From assembly GCA_024279915.1 (NCBI GenBank), contig JAJRRB010000039.1:652-64651 (forward strand): DNA of 64,000 nucleotides, read 5' to 3'. Source of the DNA: Deltaproteobacteria bacterium. Lineage in GTDB: Bacteria > Desulfobacterota > Desulfuromonadia > Desulfuromonadales > BM103. A model generated the notes under the pieces. That model was not told where the DNA came from. It did not search any database and saw only the letters and a program-made list of their open reading frames with translations. This document shows positions 2,428 to 19,589 of the stretch, in pieces; the first letter of the stretch is position 1, and each line of letters begins with the position of its first letter. A program made the translations under genes and the position numbers.

Positions 2428-4641
2428 ATGAAACTGCAAAAGATTCTGGCTGTACTGATGATTTTCTCTCTGTCGCTTGGTTCGCTTGGAACCTTCGCGC
2501 CATCGGTGTCGGCCGCTGATGATCTGACGCCTGAACAGAACCTCACGCAATTGAAAGCTGCGGCCGATGCTGCGAAAGCCGCAAAGTTGGCGGCTCTCTC
2601 TGCGGCACAAGAAGCTGCCAGGATTAAAGCTATTGCTGAAGCTGCTCTCGTAACTCAGCAAGCTGTTCAAGTTGCCGCAGAAGCAGCCGCGCAAGTTGCC
2701 GCTGATGCTGCGCAAGCCGCTGCAGACAAGATTGCCCTGGCAACTACGGATGAAGCAAAGGTTGCAGCCATGAAAGAGGCCTTGAACGCGGAGTCGGCTG
2801 CCAAGGATGCCGCCGTTGAGGTTGCCCAGGCAAACCTGGCTGTCGAGTTGGCCAGCACCTCTGTTGCCGAGGCGACTGTTTCAGTTGTTGCGGCACAAAC
2901 CGAAGTCATGAAAGCCACCACGGTTGAAGCCACGGCGACGGCCAAGGAGACCGCAGCGGTTGCTGTGATCACTTCGAGCACCGCTGCAGGTGATGCCGCT
3001 GCTGCCAAGGCTGCTGCAGATGCGGCCGCTGCCGTCAAGGCTGAGGAAATCGCCAAGCTGGCCGCGATCGAAGCGGCCACAATTGCTGCCGATCTTGCCG
3101 TTGCTGAGAAACTCGCTGAGGCGACCCGGCTGGCTGAGATTGCCGCCGCCGCCGAAGCAACGGAAGCCGAAAAAGCTGCCGCTGATAAAGCCCTTGCCGA
3201 GCAATTTGTTGCTGAAGCTGTCGCTGCCAAAGCTGCTGCGGATGAAGCTGCGGCTGCCAAGGCGATAGAAGTGGCAACCATTGCCGCTGCTCAGGCCGCC
3301 GCCGATCAGGCCGCCGCCGCTCAGGCTGCTGCTGAGGCTGAAGTTGCTGCCCAGGCTGCTGCTCAGGCTGCTGCTGACCGGGAAATTGCCCAGATCGCCG
3401 CTGCGGAAATCGCTGCCGCCGAACAGGCCGCAGCTCAAGTTCGTGCCGAAGCTGCTGCCGCCCAGGCCGCTGCTGCTACTCTGGCTGCTGCCCAGGCCCA
3501 GGCCCAGGCCCAGGCCCAGGCTGCCGCCGCTGAGGCTGCCGCGCAAGCTGCTGCGCAAGCTGCCGCCGATGTAACCGCTGCTGAGTTAGCCACCGCCACT
3601 CAGGCTGCTGCTGAGAGGGCTGCAGCCGAAGCTGCTGTCGCCCAGGCCGCGGCCGTTGCCCAGGTCGTTGCTGATGCCGCCGCCGCCCAGGCCGCCGCTG
3701 ATGCCCAGGCCGCCGCTGATGCCGCTGCTGCTCAGGTCGCCGCTGATGCCGCTGCCGCTCAGGTTGCTGCTGAAGCTGCTGCCATCGCTGAAGCCGCCGC
3801 CGCCCAGGCTGCTGCTGCTGCCCTGGCTGCCGAGCAGGCTGCTGCTGCCGAAGCGGCCGCTGCCAAGGCTGTTCTGGTTGCTGAACTGGCTGCGGCCCAA
3901 GCCGCCGCCGCCGAAGCCGCTGCCGCTGCCGATGCTGCTGCTGCCGCTGCTGCTGCCGAGCAGAGTGCCGCTGAGATTGCCGCCGCCGCTGAAGCTGCTG
4001 CTGCTGCTGAAGCTGCTGCACAGCTTGTCGCTGCTGAAGCTGAAGCTCAGGCCGTTGCTGATGCTGCTGCCGCTCAAGCCCTTGCTGATGCCACTGCTTT
4101 AGCCGCTGCCGAACAGGCTGCTGCCGAAGCTGCCGCTGCCCAGGCCGCTGCCGATGCAGCTGCTGCTGAACTGGCTGCTGCCGAAGCTGCTGCTGCCGAG
4201 CAGGCTGCTGCCGATGCTGCTGCTGCCGAGCTGGCTGCGGCTGAAGCTGCTGCTGCTGCCGCTGCTGCCGAGTTGGCTGCTGCTGAAGCCGCTGCTGCCG
4301 CGATGGCTGCTTCCGAACTGGCTGCTGCCGAGCAGGCTGCTGCTGATGCTGCTGCTGCCGAGCTGGCTGCCGCTGAAGCCGCTGCTGCCGAGCTGGCTGC
4401 TGCTGAAACTGCTGCTGCCGAGTTGGCTGCTGCCGAAGCCGCTGCCGCCCAGGCTGAAGCCGACGCTGCTGCCCTGGTTGCTGCCGAAGCCGCTGCTGCC
4501 GAAGCTGATGCTGCTGCCGTGGCTGCTGCTGAAGCCGCTGCTGCTCAGGCTGCTGCAGATGCCGCCGCTGCCGCTGCTGCTCAGGCTGCTGCCGAAGCCG
4601 CTGCTGCTGAAGATGACGATCCCGCCAGCCCCAGCTCATAA
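2428..4641 (+). CDS. Secreted, extremely alanine-rich acidic low-complexity protein (737 aa), function unknown
   Basis: RBS GGAAGGGA lies upstream of the ATG. The signal peptide is MKLQKILAVLMIFSLSLGSLGTFAPSVSA/AD. The remainder is almost only A, E, Q, D, V, L (K and T only in the first third), with pentad-like units [E/D/Q]-x-A-A-A and 10/20-aa repeats (AAELAAAEAAAAEQAAADAA). It ends EDDDPASPSS and is followed by a 9-bp hairpin. All other frames are open only because of the GCN repetition. Confidence 0.8.
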   Translation: MKLQKILAVLMIFSLSLGSLGTFAPSVSAADDLTPEQNLTQLKAAADAAKAAKLAALSAAQEAARIKAIAEAALVTQQAVQVAAEAAAQVAADAAQAAADKIALATTDEAKVAAMKEALNAESAAKDAAVEVAQANLAVELASTSVAEATVSVVAAQTEVMKATTVEATATAKETAAVAVITSSTAAGDAAAAKAAADAAAAVKAEEIAKLAAIEAATIAADLAVAEKLAEATRLAEIAAAAEATEAEKAAADKALAEQFVAEAVAAKAAADEAAAAKAIEVATIAAAQAAADQAAAAQAAAEAEVAAQAAAQAAADREIAQIAAAEIAAAEQAAAQVRAEAAAAQAAAATLAAAQAQAQAQAQAAAAEAAAQAAAQAAADVTAAELATATQAAAERAAAEAAVAQAAAVAQVVADAAAAQAAADAQAAADAAAAQVAADAAAAQVAAEAAAIAEAAAAQAAAAALAAEQAAAAEAAAAKAVLVAELAAAQAAAAEAAAAADAAAAAAAAEQSAAEIAAAAEAAAAAEAAAQLVAAEAEAQAVADAAAAQALADATALAAAEQAAAEAAAAQAAADAAAAELAAAEAAAAEQAAADAAAAELAAAEAAAAAAAAELAAAEAAAAAMAASELAAAEQAAADAAAAELAAAEAAAAELAAAETAAAELAAAEAAAAQAEADAAALVAAEAAAAEADAAAVAAAEAAAAQAAADAAAAAAAQAAAEAAAAEDDDPASPSS
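3490..3519 (+). repeat. Perfect hexanucleotide microsatellite (GCCCAG)x5 inside the Ala-rich CDS, encoding (AQ)5
   Basis: Direct reading of gcccag repeated five times; the repeat is in-frame. Confidence 0.9.
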
Positions 4642-6921: not shown

Positions 6922-7024
6922 GCGACGAAACGGTCGCCATCTCAGCCATGATCGGTGGGCTGATAAAATCGAAAAAGAACTACATAAATAACAGTAGTAA
7001 GAAATAAGATCATGCTTTTCGCGC

Positions 7025-7048
7025 CCCTCGTCCCGCGTCCCGCGTTCC
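7025..7048. repeat. Heptamer array (CCCCTCG TCCCGCG TCCCGCG TTCCGTT), GGGACGY family in reverse orientation
   Basis: Direct reading; two perfect adjacent TCCCGCG units. Confidence 0.7.
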
Positions 7049-7103
7049 GTTGCATTTAAATATTTCCTCCTTTGCAACTAAACTGAAAACTGGATTGAAA
7101 CAT

Positions 7104-9200
7104 ATGAATCAAGAAGAATCCCAGCTACGAACCGAAGAAGTCCATTTACGCGATTACCTGCACGTGATCAACAAGCGTCGCAGTCTGGTGCTGGCTGTCT
7201 TTGCGGTAATCTTCGTGATGGTGGCTCTCTATACCTTTGCCAGTGTGCCGCTCTATCGTGGTACGACCAAGGTTTTGATTGAGAAGGCGTCTTCTTCGGC
7301 GCTGACAGGGAATTCGCCTTCGCGGATTTATGATCCGGAATTTTATGAGACCCAGTTCCAGTTGATCAAAAGCCGCGCGGTGGCCAAACGGGTGGTGGCA
7401 AGCCACGACCTGGTCGACAATTTCGCCAGTTATCGCGGCGGCAATGACGATGAGGGGCTGTTGTCGAATGTGGCCGGCTGGTTTTCGGCTGCGAAAGAGC
7501 TGATCAAAGGCCTGCTTGGCACGACACAACCGGTGGGTGAAGAGCTGGCGTCGGATCAACTGACAAAGACCGCGGACCTTCTCAACGCGGATATCGAGGT
7601 CAAACCGTTCAAGAACAGCCGCATCGTTACGATCAGCTACCTGGCGCCCACCCCCGAGTTCTCCGCCATGATCGCCAATGCCACCGCCAAGGCGTATATC
7701 CAGGAAACGATGGAGATGAAGCTCGACTCCACCCGGACCACCCTGGAGTGGATGACCAGAAAGGCAACCGAAGAGGGTGTGAAACTGCAAGCGACTGAAC
7801 AGGCGCTGCAGAACTACATGGTGGCCAACGACATCATCACCCTGCAAAACCGCATGTCGGTGACCCCGGAACAGCTTTCCCAGATCAGCACGCAGCTGGT
7901 GATCGCCGAGTCGAAGCGCAAACAGCTTGAGTCTCTCTACACCAAAGTGCGCAGCGTGGCGAATGACCACAAGAAGGCGGAGACGATCCCGGCGATTGTC
8001 GCCGATCCGGCGCTGCAAATGATCCGTGGCCAGATTCTTCAGGCGGAACAGGATCTGCGCGAGCTGTCCAGTACCTACCTGTCCAAACACCCGGGGATGA
8101 AGAAGGCCAAGGCCGATCTCGAAATCCTCTCTGAAAAACGCAATCAGGAGATCACGAGGATTATCGAATCGATTCACAATGAATACGAGTTTGCCATATC
8201 GGATGAAGAGAATCTGCATGCGCAGATGGAACGGACCAAGGCCCAGGCCCAGGGTTTGAGCGAACGTTTCATTCAGTATGGTGCCTTAAAGCGCGAGGTT
8301 GATACCAACCGCACCATGTATGACGCGCTGCTGATGAAGATCAAGGAGCAGAGCATTACCGAGGAGACGCACCCGGTTTCGCTGTGGATCGTCGAAGAAG
8401 CTATTGTTCCTGAAGCCCCGGTCAAGCCGAACAAGAAGAAGAACCTGCTGCTCGGACTGATTGTCGGTTTGATGGCGGGGATCGGCATGGCCTTTTTCGT
8501 CGAATACCTCGACAACACGATCAAGTACCCGGAAGAGACGGAGAAAGCTCTCGGCCTGCCAGTGTTAGGTCTGGTTTCGCTGTGGAAGGAAAAAGATACG
8601 TCGATTGAGCAGGCGGTTGAGAAGTCGCCGCGCAGTGCCGTTGCGGAAAGCTACAAAGCTCTGCGGACCTCGCTGATGCTCGCCTCGGCAGATGGTGCTC
8701 CCGGCAGAATCCTGGTGACCAGCGCCGCGGCCGCGGCAGGTAAGACGACAACCGCCTTAAACCTTGCTTTCGCCCTGGCCCAGGCGGGCAAAAGGGTGCT
8801 TCTGATCGATGCTGATATGCGCAAGCCGCGCATCCACAAAGCCTTGAAGATGACCAACACTAACGGCTTGTCCAACTACCTCTCCGGCGGCAAAAGCAGC
8901 ATCCTGAAAAAAAGTACGCACGAGAATCTCGATGTGATCACCTCGGGGCCGATTCCGCCGAACCCTTCGGAACTGCTCTCTTCTCGCCATATGCAGCAGC
9001 TGCTCGATAGCCTCAGCGCGAACTATGACGTGATCATCTGCGATTCGCCGCCCCTGCTTTCGGTGGCTGATGCGCGGATCATCACCCGGGTTTGCGACGG
9101 CACGATTCTGGTGGTGCGCGCCAAGCAGACGACTTTCGATCTGGCCCGCAAAGCGACCCGACAGCTCACCTCGATAATGCACCGATCCTCGGGATGGTGA
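7104..9200 (+). CDS. Wzc/GumC-like polysaccharide co-polymerase fused to BY-kinase (tyrosine autokinase); reading frame breaks near 9168-9172
   Basis: ATG at 7104. An N-terminal TM segment is followed by a long coiled-coil Wzz-type periplasmic region and a second TM segment. Next come Walker A (SAAAAAGKTTTALNLA), A' (VLLIDADMRKP) and B (DVIICDSPPLL). This frame ends abnormally (..RQLTSIMHRSSGW*). Confidence 0.85.
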   Translation: MNQEESQLRTEEVHLRDYLHVINKRRSLVLAVFAVIFVMVALYTFASVPLYRGTTKVLIEKASSSALTGNSPSRIYDPEFYETQFQLIKSRAVAKRVVASHDLVDNFASYRGGNDDEGLLSNVAGWFSAAKELIKGLLGTTQPVGEELASDQLTKTADLLNADIEVKPFKNSRIVTISYLAPTPEFSAMIANATAKAYIQETMEMKLDSTRTTLEWMTRKATEEGVKLQATEQALQNYMVANDIITLQNRMSVTPEQLSQISTQLVIAESKRKQLESLYTKVRSVANDHKKAETIPAIVADPALQMIRGQILQAEQDLRELSSTYLSKHPGMKKAKADLEILSEKRNQEITRIIESIHNEYEFAISDEENLHAQMERTKAQAQGLSERFIQYGALKREVDTNRTMYDALLMKIKEQSITEETHPVSLWIVEEAIVPEAPVKPNKKKNLLLGLIVGLMAGIGMAFFVEYLDNTIKYPEETEKALGLPVLGLVSLWKEKDTSIEQAVEKSPRSAVAESYKALRTSLMLASADGAPGRILVTSAAAAAGKTTTALNLAFALAQAGKRVLLIDADMRKPRIHKALKMTNTNGLSNYLSGGKSSILKKSTHENLDVITSGPIPPNPSELLSSRHMQQLLDSLSANYDVIICDSPPLLSVADARIITRVCDGTILVVRAKQTTFDLARKATRQLTSIMHRSSGW

Positions 9201-9295: not shown

Positions 9296-9474
9296 AAACT
9301 GAAAACTGGAAAAAACCAAAGACTAATTTATCGGCCGCAGATAAAATCTGATAAATTCGGATCATTGCAAAAGCAAAGGCTTTATAGCTTGTAGACATCA
9401 GATGTTATCCGATTGCATCTGCGGCTAAAATTGTTTTTGCTGCTGCCTTTAACTTACTGCTTACAGCTGGGTTT
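9292..9474. repeat. Composite intergenic repeat: CTGAAAA x2-3 heptamers, a TTATCNGCGGC-type inverted pair, then CTTAC(A/T)G heptamers
   Basis: CTGAAAA CTGAAAA CTGGAAA at 9292-9312 (contains the stop of the kinase tail). GGCCGCAGATAAAATCTGAT at 9333-52 is opposed by ATCAGATGTTATCC..TCTGCGGCT at 9397-9426. AACTTAC TGCTTAC AGCTGGG lies just before the phosphatase ATG. Confidence 0.65.
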
Positions 9475-10173: not shown

Positions 10174-10440
10174 GCTATAAGCTGCAAATCAAAAGCATCC
10201 TCACGCCCGTTCGTTCACTCACTCAGAGTACGCAGAGACTGCAGAGAGGGTATAAAGCTTTATGGTTTTAACCCAAAGAATTAGGTTTTAAGATTTTGAC
10301 TTCTCTGCTGTCTCTGCGTCTCTGCGAGAGTATGCTTTTGATTTGAGTTTATCAGATGTTATCAGATTTTATCCGCGGCTAAATGATTTGTAGTTTTTGA
10401 CCTTTAATACATGAGTTTTACTGGCCGCAGATAATATTTT
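10171..10440. repeat. Composite intergenic repeat including a ~161-nt imperfect palindrome (10185-10345) and a TTATCCGCGGC/GCCGCAGATAA pair
   Basis: TAAGCTA TAAGCTG heptamers contain the stop codon. CAAATCAAAAGCAT (10185-98) is perfectly complementary to ATGCTTTTGATTTG (10332-45). The arms are built from GCAGAGA / TCTCTGC heptamers. TTATCCGCGGC is at 10367-77 and GGCCGCAGATAA at ~10422-33. Confidence 0.7.
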
Positions 10441-13049: not shown

Positions 13050-14174
13050 ATGTCAAAAGTCGCATTAATTACCGGCATCACCGGTCAGGACGGCGCGTAT
13101 CTCGCCGAATTTTTGTTGCGGAAGGGTTACATTGTTCACGGCATCAAACGCCGGGCATCTCTGTTTAATACGGATCGCATTGATCACCTTTATCAGGATC
13201 CGCACATTGAGCATCGTAATTTCATTCTTCACTATGGTGATCTGACTGATGCAACTAACCTGATCAGAATTATTCAGGAAGTTCAGCCAGATGAGATCTA
13301 CAATCTGGCGGCAATGTCGCACGTGGCGGTCTCCTTCGATACGCCGGAGTACACCGCCAACACTGACGGGTTAGGCACGCTACGCATTCTTGAGGCGATT
13401 CGTATTCTCGGTCTGGAGAAGAAGACGCGTTTTTATCAGGCATCGCCCTCGGAACTTTACGGTAAGGTTCAGGAGACACCACAGACGGAAACGACGCCAT
13501 TTTACCCGCGTTCACCCTATGGCGTGGCCAAACTCTATGCTTACTGGATTGTTGTCAACTACCGGGAATCATACGGCTATTTCGCTTGTAATGGTATTCT
13601 CTTTAACCATGAGTCACCGATTCGTGGTGAAACTTTTGTCACACATAAGATTACCCGCGCTGTGGCGCGTATGGCGCTCGGATTGCAGGACTGCCTCCAT
13701 TTGGGGAACCTTGATGCTAAGCGCGACTGGGGGCATGCCAGGGATTACGTTGAAGCCCAGTGGTTGATGCTGCAGCAGGATGAGCCGGAGGATTTTGTGA
13801 TTGCCACTGGCAAGCAGTACTCGGTACGTCAGATGGTGGAAACGGCAGCGACGGAACTCGGCATCGGCCTGCGTTGGGAAGGCGAGGGTCAGGACCAAAC
13901 CGGTATAGTTGACGATTTGAGTCAATTCAAAATTGAGAATTCAAAATTGATGACTAATGACATAGTCGTTCGCATCGATCCCAGGTATTTCAGGCCTGCG
14001 GAGGTTGAAACTCTACTTGGTGACCCGACCAAGGCGAAAGAGAAACTTGGCTGGGAACCGAAGGTGACTTTTCAGGAACTGGTGGTCGAGATGGTCAGGG
14101 CTGATTTGGAGTCGGCCAGGAAAGACGAATTGATTAAGGAACATGGTTATCAGACGTTTGATTATCACGAATAA
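13050..14174 (+). CDS. gmd: GDP-mannose 4,6-dehydratase
   Basis: RBS AAGGAGAG plus ATG. Motifs: [72 protein letters not shown]. Confidence 0.95.
13926..13960 (+). repeat. Heptamer array TTCAAAA TTGAGAA TTCAAAA TTGATGA CTAATGA inside gmd
   Basis: Direct reading. This is the same unit family as the intergenic arrays at 16953-17068. It is translated as ..[14 protein letters not shown].. in the variable loop before DPRYFRP. Confidence 0.8.
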
Positions 14175-14186
14175 CCCCTGGTGCGG

Positions 14187-14302
14187 GGGACGTGGTACGA
14201 GGGACATGGAAATCAAAGGCTGATTAACAGGGATGAAGGGGATGCAGGGGATAAATCAAGGACTTTGTCCCTTAACTATCCCCTTAATCCCCTTCATCCC
14301 TG
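14187..14302. repeat. GGGACGT GGTACGA GGGACAT GGAAATC array followed by a ~75-nt near-perfect hairpin (14228-14302) built of GGGGAT units
   Basis: CAGGGATGAAGGGGAT (14228-43) is the exact complement of ATCCCCTTCATCCCTG (14287-302). The inner pair is AGGGGATA/TATCCCCT (14246-53 / 14278-85). Confidence 0.8.
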
Positions 14303-14348
14303 TGAAATAATGTTACTGTTCACTGCTGAAAGCACTAAGAGGGGAAGC

Positions 14349-15356
14349 GTGGAAAAACAGTCGAAAATATTCGTGGCCGGTTCTGATGGTCTGGTCGGAT
14401 CAGCGATTGTCCGACGTTTGCAGGCTGGTGGTTATACGAACCTGTTAACCCCGGAGATCGATGAGCTGGATTTGGCTGATCCGCAGACCGTTGCCGTGTT
14501 TTTTGCGGCTGAACAGCCGGAATACGTGATTCTGGCGGCTGCCAAGGTGGGTGGCATTCATGCCAACAATACTTACCCGGCTGACTTCATTTACCTCAAT
14601 CTGTCGATCCAGAATACGGTGATTCACCAGGCTTATCTGCACGGTGTTAAGCGCCTGCTCTTCCTCGGTGCTTCGTGCATCTACCCGAAGTGCGCATCGC
14701 AGCCGATGAATGAGGACCACCTGTTGACTGGTCTGCTCGAACCGACCAACGAGCCTTACTCTCTGGCCAAGATTGCCGGTCTGAAGATGTGTGAATCATA
14801 CAATCGTCAATACGGTACGCAGTTCGTAGCGGTGATGCCGACCAATCTTTATGGTCCAGGCGATAACTTCCACCCTGAGAACTCGCACGTTCTTCCCGCA
14901 CTCATCCGCCGCTTTCACGAAGCGAAATTAAGCTCAATTCAAAATTCAAAATTAAGAATTCAAAATTCCCCAGACGAAGTCGTGGTCTGGGGCACCGGGA
15001 CGCCGATGCGTGAGTTCCTTTATGTCGACGATATGGCGGATGGATGCGTGTTTGTGATGGAGCTGGATGATGCCATTTTTGCAAGGGAACTGCTGAACTA
15101 TCCCGAACCATGTTTTGTGAACCTCGGAACCGGCGTTGATGTGACGATCAGGGCGTTGGCGGAAACAATTAAAGAGGTTGTTGGTTACGAAGGTAAACTG
15201 ATTTTTGATGCCACGAAACCGGATGGCACCATGCGTAAACTACTTGATGTCTCGCGGGCGAAAGGTTTGGGCTGGGAGGCGAGGGGTTCGCTTAGGGATG
15301 GGATTGAAAAGACTTATCAGTGGTTTTTGGAGAATCAGGAGTCTTTTAGAAAATAA
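14349..15356 (+). CDS. fcl: GDP-L-fucose synthase (GDP-4-keto-6-deoxy-D-mannose 3,5-epimerase/4-reductase)
   Basis: GTG at 14349 after RBS AAGAGGGGA. Motifs: [76 protein letters not shown]. The ORF is open from 14181, but that part is just translated repeat DNA. Confidence 0.9.
14926..14967 (+). repeat. TTCAAAA-family heptamer array inside fcl (TTCAAAA TTCAAAA TTAAGAA TTCAAAA at 14938-14965, with degenerate flanks)
   Basis: Direct reading. It is translated as ..[15 protein letters not shown].. between the conserved HEA and PDEVVVWG blocks. Confidence 0.8.
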
Positions 15357-15357
15357 T

Positions 15358-15449
15358 GGGACGAGGAACGCGGTACGCGGTACGAGGAAGTCAAGATCGG
15401 TTTTGACTGGTTTCGCGTCCCTCGTCCCGCATCCCTCGTCCCGTTTTTT
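15358..15449 (+). terminator. Long hairpin from two inverted GGGACGA-family heptamer arrays followed by T6; probable terminator/attenuator after fcl
   Basis: GGGACGA GGAACGC GGTACGC GGTACGA (15358-85) opposes GCGTCCC TCGTCCC GCATCCC TCGTCCC (15415-42), followed by GTTTTTT. The outer 9 bp are perfect (GGGACGAGG/CCTCGTCCC). Confidence 0.55.
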
Positions 15450-15454
15450 AAGGA

Positions 15455-16942
15455 ATGAACATGACGAATAAAAACAAGATCGTACCAGTAATTCTAAGCG
15501 GTGGCGCAGGCACACGCCTCTGGCCGTTATCACGCGAACTATATCCAAAACAACTTTTACCGCTGGTCGGGGAACAGACCATGCTGCAGGAGACCGTGCT
15601 GCGCTTGGAAGGGCTCGCTGACCTTGGTGCGCCGGTTGTGGTTTGTAACGACGCCCATCGTTTTATGGTGGCCGAGCAGCTGCGCCAGGTGAAGCAGGCG
15701 GCAGAGACCGTGATCCTTGAGCCGGTCGGTAGAAACACGGCTCCGGCTGTGGCTGTGGCGGCTCTACAGGCCATGGACGATGGTGAAGATCCGCTGCTGC
15801 TGGTGTTGGCTGCCGATCATGTGATCCGCGATGCGGCCGCACTCTGCACCGCAGTGACCAATGGTGTTGATGTGGTGCAGGATGGTGCGCTGCTGACTTT
15901 TGGGATTGTGCCGACAGCACCTGAGACGGGGTACGCTTACATCCGGTCGGGGGAGAGGCTTCGGGACGCGGGACGTGGGACGCGGGACGTGGAAAACCCA
16001 GCCTCCAGCCTCCAGTTACCAGCCCCAGAACTATATGATGTCCAGGAGTTTGTTGAGAAACCGGATCTGGATACGGCTGAAAAGTACCTTGCTAGCGGCG
16101 ACTACTACTGGAACAGCGGCATGTTTTTCTTTAAGGCCTCGGTCTTTCTGTCAGAATTGGAGAAATCTGCGCCGAAGATGTTGGCGGCCTGCCGCAAAGC
16201 CTGGCAGGGACGGTCATCTGACCTTGATTTTACCCGCCTAGATGCGGAGGCTTTTGCTGCCTGCCCCTCTGATTCTATCGATTATGCGGTGATGGAGAAG
16301 ACTGAGCGAGCTGTGGTGATTCCCCTCGATGCTGGTTGGAGCGATGTCGGCTCCTGGGCGGCGCTCTGGGAGGTTGGTGATGCTGATGACCATGGTAATG
16401 TCACCAGCGGTGATGTGAGCGAAGTTGCCTGCAAAGATAGTTATTTCTACGCCGGTTCGCGACTGGTCGCCGGGATCGGTCTGGAAGATACGATCGTGGT
16501 TGAGACGGCCGACGCCGTGCTGGTTGCCGCCAAGGATCGTGTCCAGGAGGTCAAAGAGATTGTCGCACGACTCAAAAAGCAGAATCGTGAAGAGTATCTG
16601 CTGCACAAACGCGTCAATCGACCCTGGGGCGCCTACGAGGGGCTCGATGCCGGTGACGGGTTTCTTGTCAAACGGATCATGGTGACACCCGGGGCCAGCC
16701 TTTCCCTGCAGAGCCATCAGCATCGCGCCGAGCACTGGGTGGTTGTGCGTGGGGTTGCAGAAGTGACTCTGGAGAATGTTGTGCAGACTGTTGAAGCCAA
16801 CCAGTCGATCTATATCCCGATTGGCCATAAGCACCGTTTCGCCAACCCCGGTGAGCAGGTTCTTGAGATCATTGAGGTGCAGACGGGCGACCATCTCTCT
16901 GAGGATGATATTGAGCGGTTTGATGATGAGTATGGACGTTAA
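15455..16942 (+). CDS. manC: Bifunctional mannose-1-phosphate guanylyltransferase / mannose-6-phosphate isomerase (type II PMI-GMP)
   Basis: Motifs: VILSGGAGTRLWPLSR..PKQ, GYAYI, FVEKPDLDTAEKYLASGDYYWNSGMFFF, and a C-terminal cupin (RPWG.Y, HRAEHWVVV.G). The start may be the second ATG at 15461 (better RBS spacing). Confidence 0.93.
   Translation: MNMTNKNKIVPVILSGGAGTRLWPLSRELYPKQLLPLVGEQTMLQETVLRLEGLADLGAPVVVCNDAHRFMVAEQLRQVKQAAETVILEPVGRNTAPAVAVAALQAMDDGEDPLLLVLAADHVIRDAAALCTAVTNGVDVVQDGALLTFGIVPTAPETGYAYIRSGERLRDAGRGTRDVENPASSLQLPAPELYDVQEFVEKPDLDTAEKYLASGDYYWNSGMFFFKASVFLSELEKSAPKMLAACRKAWQGRSSDLDFTRLDAEAFAACPSDSIDYAVMEKTERAVVIPLDAGWSDVGSWAALWEVGDADDHGNVTSGDVSEVACKDSYFYAGSRLVAGIGLEDTIVVETADAVLVAAKDRVQEVKEIVARLKKQNREEYLLHKRVNRPWGAYEGLDAGDGFLVKRIMVTPGASLSLQSHQHRAEHWVVVRGVAEVTLENVVQTVEANQSIYIPIGHKHRFANPGEQVLEIIEVQTGDHLSEDDIERFDDEYGR
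15963..16025 (+). repeat. 63-nt block of nine heptamers inside manC (GGGACGC GGGACGT GGGACGC GGGACGT GGAAAAC CCAGCCT CCAGCCT CCAGTTA CCAGCCC)
   Basis: Direct reading. 9 x 7 = 63 nt, the length of 21 codons; it spans 22 codons (offset by one base from the codon frame), read as RDAGRGTRDVENPASSLQLPAP between GERL and ELYDVQEFVEKP. Confidence 0.85.
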
Positions 16943-16952
16943 ATCACTCAAA

Positions 16953-17068
16953 TTTTGAATTTTGAATTCTTAATTTTTAATTGTAAGGTCAACAGTTAGA
17001 CAAAAGACGAAAGGGTTACGTGAAATGGTTCAGATTTTAATTCAAAATTCAAAATTCAAAATTGAGAA
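16953..17068. repeat. Inverted heptamer arrays (TTTTGAA x2, TTCTTAA, TTTTTAA ... TTCAAAA x3, TTGAGAA) flanking ~60 nt between manC and the phosphomannomutase gene
   Basis: The left array (16953-80) is the reverse complement of the right array's unit family (17041-68). Confidence 0.8.
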
Positions 17069-17074
17069 TTCGAT

Positions 17075-18427
17075 ATGAACATATCGTGTTTCAAAGCTTA
17101 CGATATCCGCGGTCGCATCCCCGACCAGCTCAATGAAGATGTCGCCTACCGCATCGGGCGCGCGTTTGCGCAATATCTGCACCCAAAAAGTGTCGTGGTC
17201 GGTCAGGATGTACGGCCAACCAGCCCAGCCTTGACGGCTGCTCTGATTAAGGGTTTGACCGAGGGTGGTGCCGATGTGCTTGATATTGGCCTGTGTGGTA
17301 CTGAGGAAGTCTATTTTGCCACATCGTATGCCAAGGCTGATGGTGGCATCATGGTAACGGCGAGTCATAACCCGGCTGATTACAACGGTATGAAGTTGGT
17401 GCGTGAGGAGAGCAAGCCGATCAGTGGTGATAGTGGTCTTGATCAGATCCGTCTGCTTGCAGAGCAGGGTGATTTCACTGTGCACGATCAAGTCGGCCAG
17501 GTGTCGCCTTATGAACACCGGGTTGCTTATATTCGTCATTTACTCAGCTATATCGATGCTTCTGCATTACGTCCACTGAAGGTGGTGGTGAATGCCGGTA
17601 ACGGTTGTGCCGGGCCCTTGCTCGATCTGCTGGAGAAGCAGCTACCGCTGGAGATCATCAAGATTTGCCACGAACCAGATGGCTCTTTTCCCAATGGCAT
17701 CCCTAATCCACTGCTGCCGGAAAACCGCGGCATCACGCGTGATGCTGTTCTGGAACATGGTGCCGGACTCGGGATAGCGTGGGACGGTGACTTTGACCGT
17801 TGTTTTTTCTTCAACGAGCATGGTGAGTTTATCGAAGGTTACTACATTGTTGGCCTGCTCGCGGAGGCGTTTCTGGCCAATCAGCCGGATGCTAAAATCA
17901 TCCATGACCCGCGTTTGACCTGGAATACCATCGATATCGTAGAACAGGCGGGTGGTCAGACTGTAATGAGCAAAACCGGCCATGCGTTTATCAAGGAGCG
18001 TATGCGCGCCGAGGATGCCATTTATGGCGGCGAGATGAGCGCTCATCACTATTTTCGCGACTTTGCTTACTGTGATAGTGGTATGATCCCATGGCTGCTG
18101 GTGGTTGAGTTGATGTGCCGTCAGCGCAAGCTGCTTTCCGAACTGGTTGGTGAGCGGATGCTCAAATTCCCTGCCAGTGGTGAAATCAACCTGACTCTCA
18201 AAAATCCGACGGCTGCAATCGCTGCGGTTGAGGAGAAATATGCGGCTGGTGCCATCGCAGTTGATCATACTGACGGGCTTTCGGTAGAGTATGAGAATTG
18301 GCGCTTTAATCTGCGGATGTCTAATACTGAGCCGGTGGTTCGGTTGAACGTGGAGTCACGCGGGGATCAAACACTTATGCAGGAAAGAACAGAGGAAATC
18401 CTGAGTTTTCTTGAGAAAGTTAACTGA
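17075..18427 (+). CDS. Phosphomannomutase/phosphoglucomutase (alpha-D-phosphohexomutase)
   Basis: The active-site loop [13 protein letters not shown], the metal loop WDGDFDRC, and [10 protein letters not shown] all match the ManB/AlgC family. Confidence 0.92.
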
Positions 18428-18518: not shown

Positions 18519-19589
18519 ATGAATCAAAGTGTTGAGATAAAATCAGATTCCCACGTCCCACGTCCCGCGTCCCGCGTCCCAGGTTTTAAGGTTCTGGTAA
18601 CCGGTGCCGCAGGCTTCATAGGTTCCCACCTCAGCCACCGTTTATTGGCCAGGGGTGATACGGTCATCGGTCTGGATAATCTGAACGATTACTATGAAGT
18701 ATCACTTAAGGAAAATCGTCTTAAGCGGTTAACTGGTAAAGAAAACTTTACCTTTGTAAAGTGTTCACTTGAAGATCGTGACGGCATAGATAAACTTTTT
18801 TCTGAGCATAACTTCGATGCGGTGGTTAACCTCGCAGCTCAGGCTGGGGTGCGTTATTCGTTGACCAATCCCCGTGCTTATGTCGATGCCAACCTGGTTG
18901 GTTTCATGAATATCCTTGAGGGGTGTCGACATCATCAGGTCGGTCATCTGGTTTATGCATCGTCCTCGTCAGTCTATGGCGCCAATACCAGCATGCCATT
19001 CTCGGTGCACGATAATATCGATCATCCACTGTCGCTTTACGCTGCGAGCAAGAAGGCCAATGAGTTGATGGCGCACACCTATGCGCATCTTTATAATTTG
19101 CCCTGTACCGGTTTGCGTTTCTTTACCGTTTACGGCCCTTGGGGACGTCCGGATATGGCTCTCTTTCTTTTTACTAAAGCGATTCTCGCTGGTGAGCCGA
19201 TCGATGTTTTCAATCATGGCCGTATGCGACGGGATTTTACCTATATTGACGATATTGTCGAGGGCGTTGTACGGGTAACTGATCAACCAGCACAGCCGAA
19301 CGCCGAATGGTCTGGCGATAACCCCGATCCGGGGACCAGTATGGCCCCTTATCGGGTCTACAATATTGGTAATAACAATCCGGTTGAGTTGATGCACATG
19401 ATCGAGACGTTAGAAAAAGCTCTGGGTAAGGTTGCGGTGAAAAATTTCCTTCCTATCCAGCCGGGTGATGTGCCTGCCACCTGGGCTAATGTCGATGCAT
19501 TGAGCGATGATGTCGGATTTCGACCGGCGACCTCGATTGAAGAGGGTGTTGGTCGGTTTGTTGAGTGGTATACGGGGTATTATTCATGA
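18519..19589 (+). CDS. NAD-dependent nucleotide-sugar epimerase, UDP-glucuronate 4-epimerase-like
   Basis: Motifs: [58 protein letters not shown]. It carries an unusual ~22-aa N-terminal extension that includes a translated heptamer array. Confidence 0.85.
18550..18584 (+). repeat. Heptamer array CCCACGT CCCACGT CCCGCGT CCCGCGT CCCAGGT within the 5' end of the epimerase CDS
   Basis: Direct reading. It is the reverse-complement family of GGGACGY and is translated as ..[12 protein letters not shown].. Confidence 0.8.

What the first reader, a model, noticed from the sequence alone, without database searches (positions are those of the whole stretch)
14926..14967. In-frame heptamer-array insertion in fcl between HEA and PDEVVVWG
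TTCAAAA TTCAAAA TTAAGAA TTCAAAA (plus degenerate flanks) encodes [15 protein letters not shown]. From memory, E. coli Fcl has only about 5 residues here (HEATAQNAPDVVVWG), so roughly 10 extra residues derive from repeat DNA. Two adjacent perfect units mean that slippage by one unit (7 nt) would frameshift the gene. This is a potential contingency switch for GDP-fucose supply.
Basis: partly seen in the sequence, partly recalled or inferred. Interest (0 to 1): 0.65.

Follow-up and report, generated by a model that had tools for sequence, protein, structure and literature searches.

The report
Dispersed heptamer-repeat insert inside fcl
The repeat tract in the GDP-fucose synthase gene is real, but it is one in-frame copy of a small 33-base repeat element scattered through this genome and many others. 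It sits in a surface loop as a tolerated passenger and does not look like an on/off switch.

Summary
Window 14936-14968 is a 33-nt array of 4.7 AATTCAA-type heptamers inside fcl (14349-15356). It adds 11 residues between HEAK and VVVWG. Cutting it out gives a 324-aa protein with the canonical loop, which is 10 residues from HEA to WG in 58 of 58 orthologues from other bacterial groups.

The contingency-switch reading is not supported, for four reasons:
- Only two perfect units are adjacent.
- Orthologous copies in relatives (Fcl 84-87% identical) keep the 33- or 30-nt length and decay by point substitution. The closest relative differs by an in-frame 21 nt.
- The same array family sits in frame in gmd and flanks the manC-manB spacer. 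A second family (GGGACGY) sits in manC, in an epimerase N-terminus and in several spacers.
- The exact 33-mer occurs in 15 unrelated metagenome contexts, and coverage spikes over it in eight metagenomes.

It is therefore a copy of a dispersed tandem-heptanucleotide element with a typical length of about 30-33 nt. This kind was already noted in Geobacter metallireducens, cyanobacteria and Beggiatoaceae. Here it is tolerated in a permissive loop.

Two things stay unexplained. This loop is the only internal indel site among 120 close Fcl homologues and carries several different array families. How the arrays spread is also unknown. Heterogeneity of +/-7 nt could not be tested because no raw reads were available.

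The parts
14349..15356 (+). fcl (GDP-L-fucose synthase, 335 aa), GTG start, host gene of the insert
   Evidence: E = 1.8e-123 to E. coli GDP-fucose synthetase 1bsv over the full length. Identical to P0001, 335 aa. Y136, K140, C109 and H179 are conserved, but the Ser107 position is Ala.
14936..14968 (+). 33-nt heptamer array AATTCAA AATTCAA AATTAAG AATTCAA AATTC. It is an in-frame insertion that lengthens the loop by 11 residues (loop reads [18 protein letters not shown]).
   Evidence: TRF. 11-residue gap against E. coli Fcl. Excision restores 324 aa and the loop LSSPDE. Coverage island with sharp ends at 14933-36 and 14965-70 in 8 metagenome runs. The exact 33-mer lies in 15 unrelated contexts.
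13924..13950 (+). Array of the same family (AATTCAAAATTGAGAATTCAAAATTGA), in frame inside gmd (13050-14174), encoding [10 protein letters not shown]
   Evidence: An orthologous array is present in gmd of L081, L082 and L084. It lies in a variable loop relative to E. coli Gmd 1db3.
16951..16982 (-). Array of the same family in antisense orientation, just after the manC stop. It is the left arm of an inverted pair.
   Evidence: It can pair with the fcl and gmd arrays (-24 kcal/mol) and with 17039-17071 (-21 kcal/mol).
17039..17071 (+). 33-nt array of the same family (AATTCAA x3, AATTGAG, AATTC), ending 3 nt before the manB ATG at 17075. It is the right arm of the inverted pair.
   Evidence: The fold of 16935-17080 is only weakly better than shuffles (z = -1.8).
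15358..15443 (+). Inverted pair of arrays of the second family (GGGACGY / CGTCCCR: 15358-15390 and 15414-15443) right after the fcl stop, followed by TTTTTT. Terminator-like hairpin.
   Evidence: RNA fold -48.8 kcal/mol, z = -4.84, 0 of 200 shuffles as good. An orthologous hairpin that appears about 2 units shorter per arm is present in L001.
14179..14209 (+). GGGACG-family array in the gmd-fcl intergenic region
15962..16015 (+). GGGACGY array (15962-15992) plus an adjacent CCAGCCT array (15998-16015), in frame inside manC (GRGTRDVENPASSLQLP)
   Evidence: The manC loop at this site is hypervariable among relatives.
18549..18581 (+). 33-nt CGTCCCR-family array in frame in the N-terminal extension of the downstream epimerase/dehydratase ORF (18519-19589; [11 protein letters not shown])
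   Evidence: L081 carries an array of a different unit (CCACGCG) at the same site.
7020..7049 (+). CGTCCCR-family array, intergenic, upstream of ORF 7050-9200

Best explanation
The tract is one copy of a dispersed tandem-heptanucleotide mini-element with unit AATTCAA and variants AATTAAG and AATTGAG. Arrays of this kind are typically 4-5 units long (about 30-33 nt).

This copy became inserted into the codon region for the loop between the helix ending RRFHEAK and the strand VVVWGTG of GDP-fucose synthase. Its length is 33 nt (3 x 11), and it contains no stop codon in this orientation and frame. It is therefore simply translated, giving 11 extra loop residues.

The insert arose in an ancestor of a Desulfuromonadales-like subclade. 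It is inherited vertically and decays by point mutation. It occasionally changes by whole multiples of three units, as in the 21-nt loss in the closest relative. It has no dedicated role in Fcl. It survives because this loop tolerates extra residues.

Outside genes, arrays of the same kind usually occur as inverted pairs that form hairpins, some of them terminator-like. That may be the form in which they spread, or the form in which they are useful.

Shown: the insertion and its exact limits, dispersal, orthology and decay, in-frame-only variants, and the peaked array length. Inferred: neutrality, retained enzyme activity, and the mode of spread.
For: - Excising 14936-14968 restores the canonical loop and the 324-aa length. 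The loop is invariant at 10 residues in 58 of 58 orthologues from other bacterial groups.
- The same family occurs 4 times within 3.2 kb of the window, and a second family occurs about 7 times, both inside and between genes.
- Period 7 is uniquely enriched: 9 arrays against 0-1 for other periods. Arrays of period 7 or 14 run at about 0.24 per kb in Desulfuromonadales fcl loci against 0.036 per kb in other bacteria.
- Array length peaks at 27-35 nt, 77 of 148 arrays.
- Metagenome coverage rises from 5-50 to 170-990 over the array only, with unrelated flanks on either side.
- The exact 33-mer occurs in 16 contigs and 15 contexts, GC 35-64%, mostly as inverted pairs. The family is also in 38 viral contigs.
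- Orthologous, point-mutated copies are present in L084 and L081, and a copy 21 nt shorter in L083.
- The AlphaFold model places the insert as a helix extension plus loop before strand 212-216, with block pLDDT of 73-86.
- Precedent: G. metallireducens has 49 elements of four GGACCGG heptamers, found 'within genes ... as well as between genes' (PMC2700814).
Against: - No enzyme, target-site duplication or other mark of an insertion mechanism was found.
- Neutrality and enzyme activity are inferred, not measured.
- This Fcl uniquely has Ala at the catalytic Ser107 position, so full activity cannot be taken for granted.
- Passive filtering does not easily explain why this one loop is the only internal indel site in 120 homologues while holding at least four different array families.
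- The structure model is mediocre (mean pLDDT 71).
Confidence: 0.7

Rival explanations
1. Contingency locus. Slipped-strand mispairing at the two perfect TTCAAAA units adds or removes 7 nt at high frequency. This would reversibly switch fcl, and so GDP-fucose supply, off and on.
For: A +/-7-nt change truncates the protein at codon 200 or 224. fcl feeds surface-polysaccharide synthesis, a typical class for phase variation. Arrays do change by whole units over evolutionary time: 21 nt in L083, and apparently about 2 units per arm in the L001 hairpin. H. influenzae PittAA has an intragenic (AATTTTG)14 tract with the same unit and a frameshift (PMC2651432).
Against: Only 2 perfect units are present, against 8-38 in heptanucleotide tracts linked to phase variation. 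The tract lies mid-gene and is interrupted. Orthologous copies decay by point mutation with the length conserved. All 56 expanded loops among 120 homologues are in frame. Identical arrays sit in gmd, manC and the spacers, so the array was not shaped for fcl. No +/-7 variant appears in any contig, which is weak evidence because contigs drop rare variants.
Confidence: 0.05
2. Cis-acting nucleic-acid element. The arrays would be binding sites for a protein that reads tandem heptads, or would pair with one another in the operon mRNA. The intragenic fcl and gmd copies, together with the antisense copy after manC, would then co-regulate stability, processing or termination of the gmd-fcl-manC-manB transcript.
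For: All four copies of the AATTCAA family in 64 kb lie within this one operon. The fcl and gmd arrays can each form a 25-bp duplex with 16951-16982 at -24 kcal/mol, against -6.3 +/- 2.4 for shuffles. The GGGACG pair after fcl forms a strong hairpin followed by a U-run. The preference for 4-5 units parallels G-rich heptamer repeats placed near ORF ends in Xanthomonas and Nostoc (PMC4692102). A regulatory role has been proposed for the Geobacter and Beggiatoaceae arrays.
Against: The intergenic partners are absent from the close relatives L081 and L084, whose spacers carry unrelated repeats. The intragenic copies decay by point mutation. Complementarity follows automatically from family membership. 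No binding protein is known, and there is no Rfam match.
Confidence: 0.15
3. Local de novo microsatellite. The array would have grown in place by slippage from a chance proto-repeat in the fcl loop, rather than arriving as a pre-formed element.
For: Heptanucleotide repeats were reported as the most abundant class of long simple repeats in most of the prokaryotic genomes surveyed (cited in PMC4679880). Unit-number changes do occur.
Against: The identical 33-mer, with the variant unit AATTAAG in the same third position, lies in 15 unrelated contexts with sharp ends. The canonical loop sequences contain no proto-repeat. Lengths peak at 30-33 nt instead of falling off monotonically.
Confidence: 0.05
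4. Selected protein feature. The 11 extra residues would give Fcl a new property, for example in oligomerisation or in contact with Gmd.
For: The insert has kept its length across lineages whose Fcl is 84-87% identical. It is modelled partly as a helix extension.
Against: Relatives carry unrelated peptides at the same site (GRGTRDAGRE, PLTPHPS, GLSPHGDC) or none at all. The same DNA is found in other proteins and, in other contigs, within open frames of other phases and orientation whose coding status was not checked. Residues within the insert are not conserved: [33 protein letters not shown].
Confidence: 0.05

Closest known systems
Gmet_H4 elements of Geobacter metallireducens: four tandem GGACCGG heptanucleotides, 49 copies (Aklujkar et al. 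2009, PMC2700814)
   Same: Same order-level lineage (Desulfuromonadales). 4-5 tandem 7-nt units, multi-copy, found both between and within genes, function unknown.
   Different: The unit sequences differ (AATTCAA and GGGACGY here). The 2009 text retrieved here shows no analysis of in-frame consequences, orthologous decay, inverted pairing or distribution across taxa.
Heptamer arrays of cyanobacteria and Beggiatoaceae: Calothrix tandem heptanucleotides (STRR, name from memory), TAACTGA direct repeats (MacGregor 2015, PMC4679880) and GGGNATC repeats (Rehm et al. 2015, PMC4692102)
   Same: Dispersed tandem heptamers. Preference for about four units. Positions close to ORF ends. Patchy distribution across phyla with no known transfer mechanism. 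Different heptamer families are mixed side by side. Contig L092 carries both TAACTGA-type and AATTCAA arrays. An AATTCAA array lies upstream of jamI in Lyngbya (PMC2799420).
   Different: Those arrays are mostly intergenic. TAACTGA contains stop codons, so it cannot be read through in the forward orientation. The AATTCAA array cannot form a G-quadruplex.
REPINs, which are REP doublets mobilised by RAYT transposases (Bertels & Rainey 2011, PMC3116915)
   Same: Short (about 30 nt) dispersed repeats. They typically occur as inverted pairs separated by a spacer and form hairpins. Singletons look like remnants.
   Different: REPs are imperfect palindromes, not tandem heptads, and are extragenic. 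No RAYT gene has been linked to the arrays here. The fcl copy is an intragenic singleton.
Simple-sequence contingency loci, for example the H. influenzae heptanucleotide tracts at hmw1A/hmw2A and a TonB-dependent receptor (Power et al. 2009, PMC2651432)
   Same: 7-nt unit, so a change of one unit inside an ORF shifts the frame. One H. influenzae intragenic tract uses the same unit (AATTTTG).
   Different: Those tracts have 8-38 units and vary in unit number between strains. This one has 2 perfect units, keeps a stable length across relatives and is decaying.

Membership tests
Phase-variable simple-sequence contingency locus | Long uninterrupted repeat tract, typically 6-8 or more units for multi-nucleotide units | tested here: not met
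   Only 2 perfect adjacent units (TTCAAAATTCAAAA). The third unit is TTAAGAA. H. influenzae heptanucleotide tracts linked to phase variation have 8-38 units.
Phase-variable simple-sequence contingency locus | Unit length not a multiple of 3 inside an ORF, so a one-unit change shifts the frame | tested here: met
   -7 nt gives a stop at codon 200 and +7 nt a stop at codon 224.
Phase-variable simple-sequence contingency locus | Unit-number polymorphism, including out-of-frame alleles, among close relatives or within populations | tested here: inconclusive
   Between lineages only in-frame states are seen (0, 12, 30 or 33 extra nt, and others). The protein database is biased towards intact ORFs. 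Within-population variation is not testable because only contigs of other strains are available.
Phase-variable simple-sequence contingency locus | Tract purity maintained over time | tested here: not met
   The orthologous copies in L084 and L081 differ by point substitutions that break the units.
Dispersed tandem-heptanucleotide elements (Gmet_H4 / STRR-like) | About 4-5 tandem copies of a 7-nt unit | tested here: met
   4.7 copies, 33 nt. The length peak is 27-35 nt across 148 arrays.
Dispersed tandem-heptanucleotide elements (Gmet_H4 / STRR-like) | Many copies of the same unit family at unrelated sites, both intergenic and intragenic | tested here: met
   4 copies in the window. Coverage islands in 8 metagenomes. 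The exact 33-mer lies in 15 contexts. The family is in 38 viral contigs.
Dispersed tandem-heptanucleotide elements (Gmet_H4 / STRR-like) | Same unit sequence as a described family (GGACCGG, TAACTGA, GGGNATC, or the Calothrix units CCCCAGT / TTGGTCA / CAACAGT, the last recalled from memory) | tested here: not met
   The units here are AATTCAA and GGGACGY. The only literature trace of AATTCAA arrays is an unremarked stretch upstream of jamI in Lyngbya.
REPIN / MITE-like mobile element | Inverted pair of repeats forming a hairpin | tested here: inconclusive
   Met for the extragenic copies (16951/17039, 15358/15414, and the pairs in L085-L093). Not met for the fcl copy, which is a singleton.
REPIN / MITE-like mobile element | Target-site duplication, or an associated transposase such as a RAYT | tested here: inconclusive
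   No duplication flanks the fcl copy beyond an ambiguous TC dinucleotide, and the flanks of 15 other copies share nothing. The window's ORFs were not screened for a transposase.
GDP-L-fucose synthase (Fcl / WcaG / GMER, extended short-chain dehydrogenase/reductase) | Full-length similarity to characterised Fcl, and a genomic position next to gmd and manC | tested here: met
   E = 1.8e-123 to E. coli GMER over residues 3-320. Gene order gmd-fcl-manC-manB.
GDP-L-fucose synthase (Fcl / WcaG / GMER, extended short-chain dehydrogenase/reductase) | Catalytic residues Ser107, Tyr136, Lys140, Cys109 and His179 (E. coli numbering; roles recalled from memory of Rosano et al. 2000) | tested here: inconclusive
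   Tyr, Lys, Cys and His are present. The Ser107 position is Ala (GCT), whereas the other 119 of the 120 aligned sequences have Ser.

The most novel reading that the evidence does not exclude
Desulfuromonadales, and judging by the contigs other phyla and phages too, may host an active and so far undescribed process that writes or pastes arrays of about 33 nt made of 7-nt units, in many unit 'flavours'. Under this reading the process acts preferentially at or next to existing arrays. A few protein loops (Fcl HEA-WG, one ManC loop, the epimerase N-terminus) would then become hypervariable cassettes whose array family is swapped between close relatives. That would imply a dedicated enzyme, for example a template-repeating polymerase, reverse transcriptase or hairpin-specific transposase, rather than plain slippage followed by selection.
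Probability: 0.12. Interest if true: 0.8.

Novelty: new member of a known kind. Interest (0 to 1): 0.4.

Why it matters
For annotation, short heptamer tracts inside housekeeping genes of Geobacter-like bacteria should not be read as phase-variation switches or as assembly errors. They are a lineage-wide mutational phenomenon that lengthens otherwise length-invariant enzyme loops.

For biology, the case gives a clean natural experiment. The exact insert is known and the exact pre-insertion state can be reconstructed. Orthologous copies at different stages of decay are available. Together these show how tiny repeat elements colonise coding sequence and how proteins tolerate it.

The case also sharpens an open question that earlier reports left unresolved. 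It is still unknown how tandem-heptamer arrays with a typical length of 4-5 units arise, spread across distant lineages, and keep landing at the same sites.

Tried and rejected
- Looked for +/-7-nt heterogeneity in public runs. All 17 runs found are held as Logan contigs, with at most 31% of the sampled words shared. No contig of the same strain spans the array, so the test was not possible.
- Rfam scan of 6.5-23.5 kb. It gave only two spurious plant miRNA hits on repeat hairpins, and no known RNA family.
- Consensus terminator scan. It missed the array hairpins because their loops exceed 8 nt. The fold was used instead.
- The manC-manB inverted pair as a stable hairpin. It is only marginally better than shuffles (z = -1.8), so no terminator claim is made for it.
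- Literature on the S107A mutant of E. coli GMER. Nothing in the searchable library, so the effect of the Ala substitution is left open.
- NJ tree of 120 Fcl sequences, to separate a single ancient insertion from repeated hits. The loop state is scattered, but the tree of such close sequences is too weak to count events.
- Assembly artefact was considered and rejected. Independent assemblies (L081, L082, L084) carry the orthologous insert.
- Adapter or synthetic contamination as the source of the exact 33-mer was considered and rejected. It lies inside contigs with unrelated natural flanks, often paired with an imperfect inverted partner.

Full report
**1. The observation**

Tandem Repeats Finder reports an array at 14936-14968 with period 7, 4.7 copies and 84% matches. 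It reads AATTCAA AATTCAA AATTAAG AATTCAA AATTC.

It lies inside an ORF whose product matches E. coli GDP-fucose synthetase (PDB 1bsv and others) at E = 1.8e-123 over the whole length. The real start is the GTG at 14349, which gives 335 aa identical to database protein P0001.

The alignment to the E. coli enzyme shows 11 extra residues between HEA(T) and VVVWG. That is 33 nt, exactly the length of the array.

The pattern is far from chance:
- TTCAAAATTCAAAA with up to 2 mismatches occurs 11 times in the window against 1.33 expected, and 0 of 100 shuffles reach 11.
- Outside one Ala-rich repeat gene, strict period-7 arrays number 9, against 0-1 for every other period from 4 to 12.

**2. It is a discrete insertion**

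Deleting 14936-14968 leaves TTA AGC TCC CCA GAC GAA, which encodes LSSPDE, and a 324-aa protein. That is exactly the length of the array-free close homologues. The loop resembles LAGSPE and VTEAPE of Geomonas.

In all 58 scored Fcl orthologues from other bacterial groups, the distance from HEA to WG is exactly 10 residues. Those fetched loci include Alpha-, Beta- and Gammaproteobacteria, Bacteroidota, Bacillota and others. Only Desulfuromonadales-like loci have 11-41 residues. The extra residues do come from repeat DNA.

**3. It is not special to fcl**

The same unit family occurs in three more places:
- In frame in gmd, at 13924-13950 ([10 protein letters not shown]).
- As an inverted pair around the manC-manB spacer, at 16951-16982 (antisense) and 17039-17071 (33 nt, ending 3 nt before the manB ATG).

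A second family, GGGACGY with reverse complement CGTCCCR, occurs at these places:
- 7020-7049.
- 14179-14209.
- 15358-15390 and 15414-15443, an inverted pair right after the fcl stop.
- 15962-15992, in frame in manC.
- 18549-18581, 33 nt, in frame in the N-terminal extension of the next epimerase gene.

The pair after fcl folds into a hairpin of -48.8 kcal/mol followed by U6. Its z-score is -4.84, and 0 of 200 shuffles fold as well. It looks like a terminator.

**4. It is a dispersed element**

When contigs of eight marine or sediment metagenome runs are laid on the region, depth jumps from about 5-50 in the fcl flanks to 170-990 over 14938-14971 only. Dozens of contigs end their match at 14933-36 and 14965-70 and continue into mutually unrelated sequence.

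The exact 33-mer, including the variant unit AATTAAG in third position, occurs in 16 JGI metagenome contigs. These represent 15 different contexts with GC 35-64%. In most of them a reverse-complement array lies 25-130 nt upstream. In L086, two of three such pairs enclose the same core of about 100 nt. That layout resembles REPINs or MITEs.

The family also occurs in 38 IMG/VR viral contigs with GC 22-63%. It is printed, without comment, upstream of jamI of the cyanobacterium Lyngbya majuscula (PMC2799420). Contig L092 carries it next to TAACTGA-type arrays.

Their lengths peak at 27-35 nt, 77 of 148 arrays, rather than falling off monotonically.

**5. Evolution at the fcl site**

The organism is Desulfuromonadales-like. 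The best genome hits are 'Deltaproteobacteria bacterium IMCC39146' at 83% and Desulfuromonadales metagenome-assembled genomes.

Relatives L084 (Fcl 87% identical) and L081 (84%) carry the insert at the same site with point differences:
- Window: AATTCAAAATTCAAAATTAAGAATTCAAAATTC
- L084: AACTCAAAATTCAAAATTAAACATTCAAAATTC
- L081: AATTCAAAATGCAAAATACAGAATACAAAATTG

The insert is therefore old. Its length is stable and its repeat purity is decaying. The closest relative, L083 (P0002, 90% identical), is 21 nt shorter in this loop, which is three units and so in frame.

Among the 120 closest homologues, 56 have extra residues at this loop. It is the only internal indel site in the whole protein. The extra peptides fall into several array-derived types:
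- IQNSK..., from the AATTCAA family.
- GRGTRDAGRE, from the GGGACG family.
- PLTPHPS and VRGEVSG, from the CCTCACC and GTGAGGG families.
- GLSPHGDC, from a small GC hairpin.

Two types sometimes lie side by side. On a rough NJ tree the loop states are scattered among close relatives. ManC and the epimerase N-terminus behave in the same way, with arrays of different unit families at the same site in different genomes. The intergenic spacers of the operon are almost unrelated between relatives and each is filled with its own small repeats. The exception is the hairpin after fcl, which is orthologous in L001 and appears about two units shorter per arm.

**6. Is it a switch?**

The mechanical premise is right. 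A -7 change gives a stop at codon 200 and a +7 change a stop at codon 224. Unit-number changes clearly do happen over evolutionary time. The features that define contingency loci are nevertheless missing:
- Only two perfect units are present, against 8-38 in the H. influenzae heptanucleotide tracts linked to phase variation (PMC2651432).
- The tract is interrupted and lies mid-gene.
- Tract purity is not maintained.
- Only in-frame lengths are seen among relatives.
- The array is a generic element found in several genes and spacers.

The decisive population test could not be run, because no raw reads and no same-strain data were available. I put the switch reading at about 5%.

**7. Most likely mechanism**

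The tract is a tolerated, translated passenger copy of a dispersed heptamer-array element in a permissive loop.

The AlphaFold model (mean pLDDT 71, so only indicative) shows the insert as an extension of helix 183-203 plus a loop before strand 212-216.

What remains inferred is that the enzyme is unaffected. This Fcl also has Ala (GCT) at the position of the triad Ser107, where the other 119 of the 120 aligned sequences have Ser. Its activity should therefore be measured, not assumed.

A cis-regulatory role is the main rival, at about 15%. All four AATTCAA copies in 64 kb lie in this operon. The fcl and gmd copies can each form a 25-bp duplex of -24 kcal/mol with the antisense copy after manC. 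Against this, the partners are not conserved in relatives.

**8. Relation to what is known**

Tandem-heptanucleotide elements of four to five units, found inside and between genes, were annotated in Geobacter metallireducens as Gmet_H4: GGACCGG x4, 49 copies (PMC2700814).

Heptamer arrays with a preference for four units, positions near ORF ends and a patchy distribution across phyla are described for Xanthomonas and Nostoc (PMC4692102) and for Beggiatoaceae, cyanobacteria and Bacteroidetes (PMC4679880). Inverted-pair hairpin elements recall REPINs (PMC3116915).

The present case is a new member of this known kind, with new unit families and a well-resolved in-frame insertion. It is not a new kind of system.

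The unexplained parts are the hot-spot behaviour of one otherwise length-invariant loop, the swapping of families at fixed sites, the 30-33-nt length peak, and the spread across GC-diverse genomes. These are the only route to something more novel. I give that about 12%.

Noticed in passing
window 14670-14672: Fcl has Ala (GCT) at the position of the catalytic-triad Ser107 (E. coli numbering), in the motif FLGASCIYP. The other 119 of the 120 aligned sequences have Ser there (TCT or TCG in L083, L084 and L081). The same substitution was engineered in E. coli GMER (PDB 1e7q). It could be a sequencing error, or this enzyme could be impaired.
   Followed up: partly
window 14224-14306: Near-perfect hairpin with 40-nt arms built from 9-nt tandem units (GGGGATGMA) in the gmd-fcl spacer. 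It produced a spurious Rfam MIR408 hit.
   Followed up: no
window 2428-4641: ORF of 737 aa, very rich in Ala, Gln and Glu, made almost entirely of nested tandem repeats with periods of 9, 12, 15, 18, 27, 30 and 45 nt.
   Followed up: no
window 9334-9425 and 10185-10345; L084 intergenic spacers: Another small intergenic hairpin family (GCCGCAGAT...ATCTGCGGC, with TCTGATAAA-type repeats). It is present in the window and in many copies in the operon spacers of relative L084.
   Followed up: no
window 17039-17075: The 33-nt array ends 3 nt before the manB ATG and supplies the GAG of the probable ribosome-binding site. This recalls the TAACTGA arrays that lie just upstream of start codons in Beggiatoaceae.
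   Followed up: no
L086 4690-4861 and 6303-6475 (GC 63% metagenome contig): Two copies of an intergenic element of about 170 nt. A conserved GC-rich core of about 100 nt is flanked by inverted AT-rich AATTCAA arrays. A third pair at 1222-1406 has a different core. The layout is MITE- or REPIN-like.
   Followed up: partly
L013 6574-6684; P0012 and P0018: In some relatives the Fcl loop carries an inverted pair of heptamer arrays (GGAGTSA... then CCTCACC...) inside the coding sequence, adding up to 31 residues. P0018 sits among sister sequences that have an 8-residue loop.
   Followed up: partly
L001 6571-6609; P0011 and P0039: A non-heptamer small palindrome (GGACTGTCCCCGAACGGGGACTG, encoding GLSPNGDC or GLSPHGDC) occupies the same Fcl loop in other relatives. 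The site therefore accepts more than one class of small element.
   Followed up: no
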